This document shows, in pieces, positions 3,001 to 6,000 of a stretch of DNA of 64,000 bases. Made by a program: the position numbers. Location: assembly GCF_016026235.1 (NCBI RefSeq), contig NZ_CP065613.1; one strand, written 5' to 3'. The stretch comes from Escherichia coli (lineage in GTDB: Bacteria; Pseudomonadota; Gammaproteobacteria; Enterobacterales; Enterobacteriaceae). Within the stretch, counting starts at the first letter, position 1, and the number at the start of each line of letters is the position of its first letter.

Positions 3001-6000
3001 AATGAAACACGCCAGTTCGCCCGGATGTTGGGACTTGAACCGAAGAACACGGCGGTGCGGAGTCCGGAGAGTAACGGAATAGCAGAGAGCTTCGTGAAAA
3101 CGATAAAGCGTGACTACATCAGTATCATGCCCAAACCAGACGGGTTAACGGCAGCAAAGAACCTTGCAGAGGCGTTCGAGCATTATAACGAATGGCATCC
3201 GCATAGTGCGCTGGGTTATCGCTCGCCACGGGAATATCTGCGGCAGCGGGCTTGTAATGGGTTAAGTGATAACAGATGTCTGGAAATATAGGGGCAAATC
3301 CAGCAATCGCATGCAGGGTCTTTGAACTGCGTTGTTCATAACGGGCAATCTCACTGAAACTCATGCCCTGCATCAGAATCTTAAGCACGCTCAACTCCCG
3401 TGCAGTCAGGAGCCAGAAATCGCTCATATCGCCGGGCAAAGGACGTAGTAACCAGCGGATAATTTGATTCTGATAACGACTCGCTGTCAGCATGGTGCCG
3501 ATGCGTGGGAAGCCGTTATACAGACTTGCAGCAGGAGCATTATCGAACCAGTCGGAGTCACCGGTCAGGCAGACCTGCCATTGCCCGGCATCACTCCGCA
3601 AGCGGACAAGACAAGCCAGAAGAACTAACTCCCCCGAAGGAAGCGAAGGGATATCAGCCAACAGATAGCCACAGGAGGTTTTTAAAACGAATTCAACCTC
3701 TGTAGTGACGTTGCTGTACACCCGCACGATATACCTGTCCGTTGGGATGAGAGACTCCAGTGCCAGCCTGGTGAACTGACAGGCACTGATAATAACCAGA
3801 GGCTTCTTCATTCAGACTCGTCCACGCCATTGCTACAAAACCTGACATTTTGAATCAGAAGGTACTGTTTTAACGAGGCTTTTTTTTCCACACCCCTTTA
3901 AATCGAGCAGCATTACTGGCTGTGTATCTGACAGTATGCTGGATATTTCGATGACCCAGATAATCCTGGAGTAGTCGGGTATCGACACCATTGTCAGCCA
4001 GAGCAAAACCACAGGCATGACGTAACATATGAGGATGTGCTTTTACAGCTAATCCTGCACGTTTTCCAGCCTCACGAATGATAGAAAAAAATGTTGTCTG
4101 CTGATAGGGCGGCGTTTCCGGGAGAGAAAAAGCCAGTCTCCTTCAACTCCGTTTTCAATTAACTTCCTCTGCTTAAGCCACGACTTGATCAAATTATATT
4201 CATCAGGAAGAAGAGGATGTGTCGTCGAGAAACCATTTTTAATACGCCGAATATTAAGTTGTTTTCCTGATGCATCAATATCGGATAAACGTAAATCAAG
4301 AAGTTCACTGGCCCTAAAACCGTGAATGAAAGCCATCATAATTAGACAGCGATTTCTTTCAGGAAAGGACATGCTCTGGGCTGCATCCATCAGCCTGTAG
4401 ACTTCATCCTGTGTGAGATATTTTCTCGTCATACGCCACCGTGTACAGTTGTAAAAAAAAGAGGCACACCCAGATAAGTATGCCTGCCATCAGAACGTTA
4501 TCGATGTAATCTCATTATTTCATTAATAAGATTTTTTGAATAGTAGTTCTACGCAACAGATTAAATATGAACTATTTATTGTGCAGCTTTTCTACAAATC
4601 ATTTTTAATGCGTGTTTTTATCTACATTGATGTGAAAAAATAAATATAAAAGCTATGAGCGACAGGTCGTGTGGGATGTGTGTTACGTCTAATGTTTTAG
4701 TTGTTTTTATTAGTTTGAGATATTTGACATTATTTCTTGCGAGAACGCTTTATTGTGTATCTAATTGATTTTTCTTTTGTTTTTGGTTGGTGAAATTATA
4801 AGGTAGAAGGTGAGATTAGTTTAATATCAATGATATGAATTTATAAATACATATTATTGCAAGGTGTTCTTTAATTTTCTGGTCGTGAGTAAACCATTGT
4901 TAATGAACTCTGCTAATAAATTAAAAATGTTCTTTTGAATAGCTTTTGTTTTTTTGTAAACCTCAGTTTGTTTATTTTGCATTCGTTTGCTGGAGAGTAT
5001 TTCAACAATTTTTATTTTTCGCATAAACTTATTAACAACTTTTTATTATCAATTGGAAATCAATGTAAACTAAAATGTTAGCGAAGCGATAATCTTGTGC
5101 TAAAAAATATTTAAGCATGATGATTAATTAAAGAAGAGTAAAAATAAATCACTGCTAATAAATTATACGAATCGTGTTTAAAGCTCCACGTTGTTTTGGT
5201 CTGACTTATTTTTGTCCTCGTTTCAAGAACCCTTTTCGTATATGCTAACCGTGAGCGGGAGTGAACAAGTCACCATAGCCAGGAACACTAGCGGCGTAAT
5301 TCTTAAGCTGAGTGGCATTTCACCTGCGGTTTATCAGTGCATTCATAGCACCTTCATCAGCCAGATTGAACGAGTCCGCTTAGAATTTGCTGGCGAGGTT
5401 GTCACTATGAAGCATGAGAGTTACCTCAGTGTTTATATAAGGATTCAGCCCCCCTCTCTGGAACGGTAACTCTCAATCTGATCGGTTCCTGCGTTAGTTC
5501 ACATCACGACTCATTTTTTCGCTCTCACCGGCATCCCATTTGCCACAAAATATCCCGCCGTGCTCCTTGGCAGCGCTTCCTGTCCACGAATCATGTCCGC
5601 TATTTTCTCGCCAATCATAATTGTCGTGGCGTTCAAATTGCCGGTGATAATCTGCGGCATAATTGACGCATCCACCACGCGTAGGCCTTCCAGCCCATGC
5701 ACGCGGCCTTCGCCGTCAACCACGGACATCTCGTCGTAGCCCATTTTGCAGGTACCGCACGGATGGAAGGCGGTTTCGGCGTGATTACGCACGAACTCAT
5801 CGAGCTGCTCATCCGTCTGACATTCCGTGCCGGGGCTGATTTCGCGGCCACGATACTGATCCAGCGCCGGTTGATGCATGATCTCGCGGGTGATGCGAAT
5901 TGCGTCGCGGAACTCCTGCCAGTCCTGCTCGTGCGACATGTAGTTAAACAGAATCGCCGGATGCTGGTGCGGGTCGCGGGATTTAATCCGCACATGCCCA

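What the first reader, a model, noticed from the sequence alone, without database searches (positions are those of the whole stretch)
4433..5510. About 1.1 kb of AT-rich, ORF-poor DNA upstream of the recombinase, with a 14-bp direct repeat: candidate switch or silenced promoter region
This stretch has no convincing ORF until a 92-aa orphan at 5191-5469, and is far more AT-rich than the flanking genes. CTGCTAATAAATTA occurs twice in direct orientation (4910-4923 and 5152-5165). Since it precedes a FimB-type recombinase, it is where an invertible promoter element or a nucleoid-protein-silenced promoter would be expected. I could not identify a clean inverted-repeat pair by eye.
Basis: inference. 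Interest (0 to 1): 0.45.

Follow-up and report, generated by a model that had tools for sequence, protein, structure and literature searches.

The report
AT-rich upstream region of fimX, no switch
This AT-rich, gene-free 1.1 kb is the DNA between the recombinase gene fimX (ipbA) and betA at one end of the known E. coli island PAI-X; it is not a flip-switch, because the real switch (hyxS) lies on the other side of fimX and has been deleted in this strain.

Summary
Window 4433-5510 has no credible gene. Its core (26.5% GC) is the most AT-rich stretch of the 64 kb. CTGCTAATAAATTA occurs twice in direct orientation, which about 2% of shuffles match.

The locus is already known. [quoted passage not shown]

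The switch reading fails:
- No inverted repeat exceeds chance convincingly or is conserved.
- No hyxS- or fimS-like recombination site is present.
- The region is single-copy and collinear in about 1,890 complete genomes.
- 0 of 1,894 genomes carry the best candidate segment flipped, whereas the known switch hyxS is flipped in 16.
- Published FimX-overexpression sequencing found only fimS, hyxS and ipuS.

The cognate switch hyxS lies 3' of fimX. In this window it is precisely excised. fimX is frameshifted, and hyxR and hyxA are broken by IS elements.

The most likely reading is that the stretch is foreign, AT-rich 5' control and spacer DNA of fimX. It has a conserved 170-bp promoter-proximal block with a terminator-like hairpin 20 nt before the start codon, a hypervariable centre and a conserved distal block. 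It is probably H-NS-silenced like fimB, but this is inferred, not shown. Interest is low.

The parts
4433..5405 (.). Island-specific, single-copy intergenic DNA at the betA-proximal end of PAI-X (the finding proper). The AT-rich core is about 4500-5250.
   Evidence: It is present, collinear and single-copy in 1,894 of 5,426 complete E. coli genomes. It is absent from K-12 and other PAI-X-negative strains, which share only 5406-5510. GC content.
4433..4600 (-). Conserved promoter-proximal and leader block of ipbA/fimX.
   Evidence: At most 10% of sites vary among five divergent alleles, and pairwise identity is 95.5-100%. Identity is still 94% in Escherichia sp. MOD1-EC7003 out to about 4650.
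4452..4485 (-). Intrinsic-terminator-like hairpin (10-bp stem, AUCU loop, then U8) on the ipbA strand. It ends 20 nt before the ATG at 4432.
   Evidence: Found by the terminator scan and present in the RNA fold. The two allelic substitutions in the stem keep pairing: U-G becomes C-G, and C-G becomes U-G. A non-homologous hairpin sits in the equivalent position in a second FimX-type locus, L013 2940-2976.
4601..5000 (.). Hypervariable centre of the intergenic region.
   Evidence: 50-62% of sites vary in 4701-4900. Pairwise identity is 64-88%, while adjacent ipbA differs at 0.5-5% of third codon positions.
4910..4923 (+). Copy 1 of the 14-bp direct repeat CTGCTAATAAATTA.
   Evidence: It is mutated at 1-3 positions in other alleles. 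It lies in the only patch of the centre still detectable in Escherichia sp. (4911-4954).
5001..5242 (.). Conserved distal AT-rich block of unknown role. It may be a distal regulatory module.
   Evidence: 8-18% of sites vary and pairwise identity is 86-100%, higher than both neighbouring segments in nearly every pairwise comparison. It contains no Rfam family, no terminator and no promoter consensus.
5152..5165 (+). Copy 2 of the 14-bp direct repeat, inside the conserved distal block.
5191..5469 (+). The 92-aa orphan ORF. It is not a gene and straddles the island/core boundary at 5405/5406.
   Evidence: No codon periodicity of substitutions (17/18/18). It is interrupted in allele L005. Boundary.
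5406..5510 (.). Core-genome 3' flank of betA, shared with K-12. It contains an 11-bp perfect inverted repeat (5415-5425 / 5465-5475).
   Evidence: K-12 and other PAI-X-negative genomes match only here. Inverted repeat.
3870..4432 (-). ipbA (fimX, hbiF) tyrosine-type DNA invertase gene. Here it is a pseudogene: a 1-nt deletion leaves A7 at 4085-4091 where SE15 has A8.
   Evidence: RefSeq annotation of the near-identical record. Alignment to intact SE15 ipbA. The ORF is split into 127 aa and 61 aa.
3842..3853 (+). Scar of the excised hyxS switch: a single CTGACATTTTGA in the 58-bp hyxR-ipbA spacer.
   Evidence: The window lacks 271 bp relative to SE15, with endpoints in direct 12-mers. 12-mer copy counts.
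3303..3811 (-). 5' fragment of hyxR (LuxR-type regulator), cut by an IS2 insertion (about 1972-3302).
   Evidence: RefSeq annotation. Hits without IS2 start at window 3303.

Best explanation
The stretch is the non-coding 5' flank of the recombinase gene fimX (ipbA/hbiF), at the end of the horizontally acquired island PAI-X that abuts betA. It is fixed in orientation and is not a recombination substrate.

I read it as a composite of three parts:
- A conserved 170-bp promoter-proximal and leader block. Its terminator-like hairpin, 20 nt before the start codon, would shield fimX from read-through. The co-directional betIBA operon and the AT-rich DNA upstream are the likely sources of that read-through.
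- A fast-diverging AT-rich spacer.
- A conserved distal block that may hold regulator sites.

Because the DNA is 26-34% GC, it is expected to be coated by H-NS-type proteins. That would keep fimX expression low, as shown for the paralogue fimB.

Shown here: identity of the locus, non-coding status, fixed orientation, the conservation pattern, and the presence of the hairpin.

Inferred: promoter location, H-NS silencing, the insulating role of the hairpin, and any role for the distal block.

In this particular strain the system is dead. fimX is frameshifted, the switch hyxS is excised, and hyxR and hyxA are disrupted by IS elements.
For: - Locus identity comes from RefSeq annotation of a 99.8%-identical record and of intact SE15. 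The literature on PAI-X, fimX and hyxS agrees (PMC3789825, PMC6083910).
- The island boundary is at 5405/5406.
- The region is non-coding and contains no Rfam family.
- Its orientation is fixed. There are 1,895 records with 1,897 places, and 1,888 of them are collinear over at least 80%.
- 0 of 1,894 genomes carry 4610-4919 inverted. The hyxS positive control is flipped in 16 genomes and in reference orientation in 1,781.
- Conserved blocks flank a hypervariable centre.
- The terminator-like hairpin is conserved with pairing-preserving variants. An analogous hairpin sits 24 nt before the ATG of a divergent FimX-type gene in another chromosomal context.
- betA, betB and betI are on the same strand as ipbA.
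- This is the most AT-rich DNA in the window.
- fimB precedent: H-NS covers about 500 bp upstream to 150 bp downstream of the transcription start site, SlyA counter-silences, and NanR/NagC operators lie 470-760 bp upstream (PMC3173223).
Against: - There are no transcription start, ChIP or expression data for this region.
- Sigma-70-like sites are not enriched: 4 found against 4.6 +/- 2.1 expected, and none lies in the proximal block.
- The H-NS high-affinity motif is not enriched: 2 hits with at most 2 mismatches in 1.1 kb, equal to the window average.
- A-tracts are not helically phased, and no SlyA-like site is present.
- A strong terminator-like hairpin lies between nearly all of the stretch and the gene. 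Promoters further upstream would therefore be attenuated, and much of the 1.1 kb may do nothing for fimX.
- Other FimX-type genes manage with 277 bp (44% GC) or 514 bp (36% GC) of upstream DNA.
Confidence: 0.55

Rival explanations
1. The stretch contains an invertible promoter element (a second FimX/FimB-type switch) controlling fimX.
For: - It sits next to a Fim-family invertase gene, and switches usually lie next to their recombinase (PMC6083910).
- Under lenient scoring, an imperfect 25-nt inverted repeat (20/25, with a perfect 10-bp core) at 4585-4609 / 4920-4944 brackets 310 bp, a fimS-like size. It is reached by 4.5% of shuffles.
Against: - That repeat drops to 12-16/25 in other alleles, with no compensating changes.
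- Exact and stringent inverted-repeat statistics are at chance (p = 0.53 and 0.40). The hyxS control beats 200/200 shuffles.
- No hyxS- or fimS-like half-sites are present.
- 0 of 1,894 genomes carry the segment inverted, and the region is collinear in 1,888 of 1,895 records. hyxS is flipped in 16 genomes.
- FimX, FimB, FimE, IpuA and IpuB overexpression followed by whole-genome sequencing found only fimS, hyxS and ipuS (PMC6458436).
- The cognate switch is already accounted for on the other side of fimX.
Confidence: 0.02
2. Apart from the proximal 170 bp or so, the stretch is functionless island-end spacer. It would be decayed or never-functional foreign AT-rich DNA that persists because it is harmless when H-NS-coated. 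The 14-bp repeat and the conserved distal block would then be accidents of low complexity and recombination history.
For: - The centre diverges enormously (64-88% identity) and carries indels.
- Identity patterns are mosaic, consistent with recombination rather than selection. For example, window against EC93 is 100% in 5243-5405 but 89.6% in 5406-5540.
- There is no coding signal, no RNA family and no motif enrichment.
- Homologous modules have much shorter upstream regions.
- IS elements are tolerated in the region (IS1 in H152).
Against: The distal block 5001-5242 is more conserved than both of its neighbours in nearly every pairwise comparison, including the most divergent allele (86% against 71% and 80%). 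This suggests constraint.
Confidence: 0.3
3. The conserved distal block (5001-5242), or the segment ending at the hairpin, encodes an unannotated small RNA or micro-protein. The hairpin at 4485-4452 would be its terminator rather than a fimX leader element.
For: - A conserved non-coding block and a canonical terminator-like hairpin on the minus strand are both present.
- PGAP calls a 44-aa hypothetical protein in some alleles (window equivalent about 4655-4768).
Against: - No Rfam hit at E <= 1.
- The hairpin is more than 500 nt from the distal block, across the hypervariable centre.
- The small ORF is frameshifted or unannotated in most alleles.
- No ORF is shared between alleles.
- The fold z-score of the leader is only -2.3.
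Confidence: 0.1

Closest known systems
PAI-X (fimX-hyxRAB) of extraintestinal pathogenic E. coli, with its switch hyxS (Bateman & Seed 2012, as described in PMC6083910, PMC3789825 and PMC6458436)
   Same: It is the same locus. The order is betA, intergenic region, ipbA/fimX, hyxR, hyxA, at 89-99.8% identity to about 1,890 genomes including UTI89 and CFT073-like strains.
   Different: - The finding's coordinates are the fimX-betA spacer, not the switch.
- hyxS lies between fimX and hyxR and is absent here: a precise 271-bp excision has left one CTGACATTTTGA.
- fimX, hyxR and hyxA are pseudogenes in this strain.
The fimB upstream regulatory region of E. coli K-12 (H-NS silencing, SlyA counter-silencing, distant NanR/NagC operators; PMC3173223)
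   Same: Both are long AT-rich non-coding stretches 5' of a Fim-family invertase gene whose product must be kept scarce. Both show conserved sequence far upstream of the gene.
   Different: - There is no sequence homology: no paralogous copy was found in E. coli genomes.
- No SlyA-like site is present.
- No H-NS, NanR or NagC binding has been tested.
- A terminator-like hairpin sits directly before the fimX ribosome-binding site. I do not know of an equivalent at fimB (from memory, not tested here).
fimS / ipuS / hyxS invertible promoter elements
   Same: Genomic neighbourhood only: all lie adjacent to a Fim-family tyrosine recombinase gene, are AT-rich, and have a candidate segment of about 300 bp.
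   Different: - There are no conserved inverted repeats and no shared half-sites.
- No orientation polymorphism exists in about 1,890 genomes.
- No inversion occurs on recombinase overexpression (PMC6458436).
Salmonella STM0716 recombinase and T1-antigen phase switch (PMC11294581), and a divergent E. coli FimX-type module next to budAB (L013/L014)
   Same: The module order is the same: recombinase gene, then the switch downstream of it, then regulator genes (PMC11294581). L013 has the same 12-mer recombination core as an inverted pair, and a terminator-like hairpin just before the recombinase ATG.
   Different: - Their upstream regions are short (514 and 277 bp), less AT-rich (36% and 44% GC), and not homologous to 4433-5405.
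- The Salmonella locus has no hairpin immediately before the gene.

Membership tests
Fim-type invertible promoter switch (fimS / hyxS / ipuS kind) | A pair of inverted repeats (7-16 bp, perfect, conserved among strains) bracketing a segment of about 250-320 bp | tested here: not met
   The best exact inverted repeat is 11 bp, lies outside the AT-rich core, and has p = 0.53. Stringent score gives p = 0.40. The best lenient pair, 4585-4609 / 4920-4944, is 20/25 with p = 0.045, but only 12-16/25 in other alleles. hyxS control: 16/16 perfect and 0/200 shuffles.
Fim-type invertible promoter switch (fimS / hyxS / ipuS kind) | Both orientations exist in natural populations or assemblies | tested here: not met
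   1,888 of 1,895 records are collinear over at least 80%, with only 2 extra places. 0 of 1,894 genomes match a query with 4610-4919 inverted. hyxS is flipped in 16 genomes by the same test.
Fim-type invertible promoter switch (fimS / hyxS / ipuS kind) | Recombination half-sites resembling those used by the adjacent recombinase | tested here: not met
   No match to the hyxS 16-mer (up to 4 mismatches), its 12-mer core (up to 2 mismatches) or the fimS 9-mer (up to 1 mismatch) in 4433-5510.
Fim-type invertible promoter switch (fimS / hyxS / ipuS kind) | Inversion when the recombinase is expressed | not testable with these tools
   Published whole-genome sequencing after FimX (and other Fim recombinase) overexpression in UTI89 and CFT073 detected only fimS, hyxS and ipuS (PMC6458436). 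UTI89 carries this region.
PAI-X island of E. coli (fimX-hyxRAB next to betA) | Synteny and sequence identity with annotated PAI-X loci; absent from PAI-X-negative strains | tested here: met
   89-99.8% identity and the same gene order in 1,894 genomes. K-12 shares only 5406-5510.
H-NS-silenced (xenogeneic) promoter region | AT content well above the genome average, in horizontally acquired DNA | tested here: met
   26.5-33.7% GC against 51.8% for the window, and the lowest in the window. The DNA is island-specific.
H-NS-silenced (xenogeneic) promoter region | H-NS occupancy and derepression in an hns mutant; presence of high-affinity nucleation motifs | tested here: inconclusive
   Occupancy and derepression are not testable here. 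The TCGATAAATT motif (PMC2094087) is not enriched, and there is no phased A-tract signal.
Protein-coding gene (the 92-aa ORF at 5191-5469) | Codon-position bias of substitutions and an ORF kept intact among alleles | tested here: not met
   Variable sites fall 17/18/18 over the three codon positions. The ORF is broken in L005 and spans the island/core junction.

The most novel reading that the evidence does not exclude
The fimX-betA spacer is a real control region, and its importance grows when hyxS is lost. hyxS-positive islands carry a third, directly oriented copy of the recombination core (CTGACATTTTGA). This copy allows precise excision of the switch, which has happened repeatedly: in this strain, clone D i14, an APEC O78 strain, an Escherichia sp., and roughly 65-95 of about 1,890 genomes. 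Excision leaves hyxR 58 bp behind fimX. A phase-variable hyxRAB unit then becomes an ordinary operon, driven and silenced only from this AT-rich region and gated by the leader hairpin.
Probability: 0.2. Interest if true: 0.4.

Novelty: already known. Interest (0 to 1): 0.15.

Why it matters
It matters little for the finding as stated. The locus (PAI-X, fimX, hyxS) is described, and the stretch is its non-switching flank.

The useful outcomes are negative and corrective:
- A recombinase-adjacent AT-rich gap should not be read as a switch without conserved inverted repeats.
- For this recombinase family the switch sits downstream of the gene, not upstream.

Two by-products may interest people working on Fim recombinases:
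- The known switch hyxS is recurrently and precisely excised through a third, direct copy of its core site.
- Two unrelated FimX-type genes each carry a terminator-like hairpin about 20 nt before the start codon, which suggests that insulation from upstream transcription is part of keeping these enzymes scarce.

Tried and rejected
- Rfam scan of 3700-5700 at E <= 1: nothing.
- Promoter scan: not enriched, and nothing in the proximal block.
- H-NS motif TCGATAAATT: 2 weak hits, equal to background.
- SlyA consensus: none.
- AA/TT helical periodicity: none.
- hyxS and fimS half-site scans: none.
- Sensitive blastn for paralogous copies in E. coli genomes and plasmids: only the orthologous locus, plus three chromosomes mislabelled as plasmids.
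- The search for related loci on GTDB representative genomes with FimX: one locus only (Escherichia sp.), so broad comparative analysis of the upstream region was not possible that way.
- Three papers could not be read because they are not held: Bateman & Seed 2012, Bateman 2013 and Hannan 2008. Statements about hyxS therefore rest on papers that cite them.
- Counting hyxS-deleted genomes exactly failed, because the search tool joins the two flanks. Only a range of about 65-95 could be given.
- The idea that the 92-aa ORF or the PGAP 44-aa ORF is a gene was rejected (and frameshift flags).
- The idea that the hypervariable centre reflects ongoing hypermutation was rejected, because many records of the ST131-type allele group (O25:H4 among them) give identical scores.
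Full report
**1. What is in the sequence**

Window 4433-5510 is 33.7% GC. Its core, 4500-5190, is 26.8% GC, against 51.8% for the whole window. The lowest-GC 691-bp stretch of the entire 64 kb starts at 4491 (26.5% GC), and it is the only cluster at or below 33% GC (profile).

No ORF longer than 56 aa lies in 4433-5190. The 92-aa TTG-start ORF at 5191-5469 exists. CTGCTAATAAATTA occurs at 4910-4923 and 5152-5165 in direct orientation.

A direct exact repeat of 14 bp or more arises in 1.5% of dinucleotide-preserving shuffles of the region and in 1.9% of shuffles of the AT-rich core. 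That is weakly unusual. The exact pair is kept only in this allele and the O157-type allele.

**2. Which locus this is**

Megablast against 5,426 complete E. coli genomes gave a 99.8%-identical record, FDAARGOS_943. Its RefSeq annotation reads, in window coordinates (context):
- IS600 fragment
- hyxA fragment
- hyxR 3' fragment
- IS2
- hyxR 5' fragment (to 3811)
- ipbA, noted as 'also known as HbiF and FimX; frameshifted'
- a gap
- betA (5511-7181), then betB, betI, betT and ehaA

The intact arrangement in strain SE15 is hyxB-hyxA-hyxR-ipbA-(gap)-betA. This is pathogenicity island PAI-X, that is fimX plus hyxRAB (PMC3789825). ipbA, betA, betB and betI all run on the minus strand, so the finding lies 5' of the recombinase gene and 3' of the bet operon.

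K-12, BL21 and other PAI-X-negative genomes match only window 5406-5510. The island therefore ends at 5405/5406, and 4433-5405 is island DNA. It is present in 1,894 of 5,426 genomes.

**3. Where the real switch is**

The literature places the FimX-dependent invertible promoter hyxS between fimX and hyxR, with 16-bp inverted repeats (PMC6083910, PMC3789825, PMC6458436). The paralogous Salmonella STM0716 locus has the same order: recombinase first, then the switch downstream (PMC11294581).

In SE15 I located the switch. The perfect repeats TGATTCAAAATGTCAG / CTGACATTTTGAATCA sit at L002 3549-3564 and 3811-3826.

The window lacks exactly 271 bp here. The hyxR start (3811) and the ipbA stop (3870) are 58 bp apart, and a single CTGACATTTTGA remains at 3842-3853.

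Loci that still have hyxS carry three copies of this 12-mer:
- an outer copy in direct orientation
- an inverted copy in the left repeat, which together with the outer copy forms a 25-bp palindrome
- a direct copy in the right repeat

The deletion endpoints are the two direct copies.

The same scar is present in FDAARGOS_943, clone D i14, an APEC O78 strain and an Escherichia sp. contig. CFT073 still has hyxS (H116). About 65-95 of roughly 1,890 PAI-X-positive genomes lack hyxS in this way.

The window's ipbA also has a 1-nt deletion in a homopolymer: A7 at 4085-4091 where SE15 has A8. This splits the ORF before the catalytic residues. The whole system is decayed in this strain.

**4. Tests of the switch hypothesis for 4433-5510**

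(a) Inverted repeats.
- The longest exact inverted repeat is 11 bp (5415-5425 / 5465-5475). It lies in the core-genome flank, and 53% of shuffles match it.
- With +1/-2 scoring, 40% of shuffles do as well.
- With lenient +1/-1 scoring, the best pair is 4585-4609 / 4920-4944. It is 20/25 complementary, has a perfect 10-bp core and brackets 310 bp. It is reached by 4.5% of shuffles.
- In five other alleles its complementarity is only 12-16/25, with no compensating changes.
- The same statistic on hyxS beats all 200 shuffles.

(b) No hyxS-like or fimS-like half-site occurs in the region.

(c) Population test.
- The island-specific 973 bp gives 1,895 records and 1,897 places.
- 1,888 of these are collinear over at least 80%, by megablast and by word-11 blastn.
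- The exceptions I saw were an IS1 insertion, truncations and one very divergent allele.
- A query with 4610-4919 artificially inverted matched 0 of 1,894 genomes over 80% or more. Every genome showed the middle segment on the opposite strand.

(d) Positive control. The SE15-orientation hyxS query is collinear in 1,781 genomes. The artificially inverted hyxS query is collinear in 16 genomes. One of them, strain E-93, has the candidate region in its usual orientation. The method therefore detects a true switch at about 0.9%, and detects nothing in the candidate region.

(e) Published experiment. Overexpression of FimB and FimX in UTI89, and of FimB, FimE, IpuA, IpuB and FimX in CFT073, followed by whole-genome structural-variant calling, found only fimS, hyxS and ipuS (PMC6458436). 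UTI89 carries the candidate region collinearly at 90.1% identity (H209).

The switch reading is rejected.

**5. Anatomy of the region**

I aligned six alleles: the window, SE15, clone D i14, APEC O78, EC93 and E-93. The variability counts use five of them, because E-93 carries the EC93-type allele. The pattern is:
- **4433-4600:** at most 10% variable sites.
- **4701-4900:** 50-62% variable sites.
- **5001-5200:** 8-18% variable sites.
- **5243-5500:** 20-26% variable sites.

Pairwise identity in 4701-4900 is 64-88%, with indels. Over the same strain pairs, ipbA differs at 0.5-5% of third codon positions. The cryptic Escherichia sp. contig keeps 94% identity up to about 4650, and then only a 45-bp patch (4911-4954) is detectable.

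Many records of the ST131-type allele group (O25:H4 among them) give identical scores. The divergence is therefore old allelic variation, not ongoing hypermutation. Segment-wise identities are mosaic, which indicates recombination.

No coding signal exists. Substitutions in 5191-5469 fall 17/18/18 over the three codon positions. ORFs are not shared among alleles. The 44-aa 'hypothetical protein' that PGAP calls in some genomes is flagged as frameshifted, or left unannotated, in others. No Rfam family matches.

**6. The hairpin before fimX**

On the ipbA strand, 4485-4462 forms a 10-bp stem with a 4-nt loop, followed by U8. It ends 20 nt before the ATG at 4432. The two allelic substitutions within the stem preserve pairing.

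A divergent FimX-type gene (81% identity) sits next to budAB in other E. coli. It has the same module order and the same 12-mer as an inverted pair. It carries a non-homologous 12-bp-stem hairpin plus T-run that ends 24 nt before its ATG. The Salmonella orthologue has none at that position.

In both E. coli contexts the upstream genes are co-directional with the recombinase gene. I infer that the hairpin insulates the recombinase gene from upstream transcription. The promoter would then either overlap the hairpin or rely on read-through. This is inference only.

**7. Silenced-promoter reading**

For it:
- The DNA is extremely AT-rich and horizontally acquired.
- There is a precedent at fimB. 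H-NS footprints extend from about 500 bp upstream to 150 bp downstream of the start site, SlyA counter-silences, and NanR/NagC operators lie 470-760 bp upstream (PMC3173223).

Against it, or neutral:
- Sigma-70-like sites are not enriched.
- The H-NS high-affinity motif (PMC2094087) is at background frequency.
- A-tracts are dense only as composition predicts, and they are not phased.
- No SlyA-like site is present.
- Homologous modules have upstream regions of only 277-514 bp at 36-44% GC.

My best reading is that the stretch is a fixed-orientation 5' control and spacer region of fimX. The proximal 170 bp and perhaps the distal block are functional, and the whole is probably H-NS-coated (confidence about 0.55). 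The main rival is that everything beyond the proximal block is inert spacer (about 0.3).

**8. Novelty and verdict**

The locus and its switch are already described. The finding's stretch is their non-switching flank.

Three by-products are worth recording:
- hyxS is recurrently and precisely excised through a third direct copy of its core site.
- Two unrelated FimX-type genes carry a pre-start-codon hairpin.
- The spacer has a hypervariable centre.

I found no mention of hyxS excision in the papers available to me.

Noticed in passing
window 3812-3869 (12-mer at 3842-3853); compare L002 3540-3826: The known FimX switch hyxS (271 bp) is precisely missing, with endpoints in two direct copies of CTGACATTTTGA. 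hyxS-positive loci carry three copies: an outer direct copy, an inverted one in the left repeat and a direct one in the right repeat. The left two form a 25-bp palindrome. The same scar recurs in clone D i14 (CFT073 keeps hyxS), APEC O78, FDAARGOS_943 and an Escherichia sp. Roughly 65-95 of about 1,890 PAI-X-positive genomes are affected. This looks like recurrent, possibly recombinase-mediated, excision of a switch. It was not mentioned in the papers I could read.
   Followed up: partly
window 4452-4485 (minus strand); L013 2940-2976: A terminator-like hairpin plus U8 ends 20 nt before the ipbA start codon, and its allelic variants keep pairing. A non-homologous hairpin sits in the equivalent position, 24 nt before the ATG of a divergent FimX-type gene next to budAB. 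None occurs at the Salmonella STM0716 gene.
   Followed up: partly
window 4601-5000 (most extreme at 4701-4900): The centre of the spacer is hypervariable: 64-88% pairwise identity with indels. The adjacent ipbA differs at 0.5-5% of third codon positions, and both flanking blocks are 86-100% identical. The centre is stable within lineages, and neighbouring segments show mosaic identities. Deep alleles plus recombination are the likely cause, but this is not demonstrated.
   Followed up: partly
window 4085-4091: ipbA/fimX is inactivated by a 1-nt contraction of a homopolymer (A7 on the + strand, against A8 in SE15). The frameshift lies before the catalytic C-terminal half. Such a tract could in principle slip back.
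   Followed up: yes
window about 109-3302: The rest of PAI-X is decayed. IS2 (about 1972-3302) splits hyxR, and an IS600 fragment (about 109-1169) truncates hyxA. hyxB is not seen before the window starts.
   Followed up: partly
L013/L014 3001-6567 (other E. coli genomes): A second, divergent PAI-X-like module lies next to acetolactate decarboxylase/synthase genes instead of betA. Its order is recombinase (81% identical to FimX), a switch of about 230 bp, two regulator-like genes and an autotransporter. It uses the same CTGACATTTTGA core as a simple inverted pair, without the third copy.
   Followed up: partly
window 11400-12000: A second strongly AT-rich stretch (about 28-33% GC) lies immediately upstream of the autotransporter gene ehaA (11937-15986). 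It is probably another foreign, silenced promoter region.
   Followed up: no
window 5415-5425 / 5465-5475: A perfect 11-bp inverted repeat with a 39-nt spacer lies in the core-genome 3' flank of betA, 10 bp from the island junction (5405/5406). Its length is at chance level. It may be a betA 3' structure or related to the insertion site.
   Followed up: no
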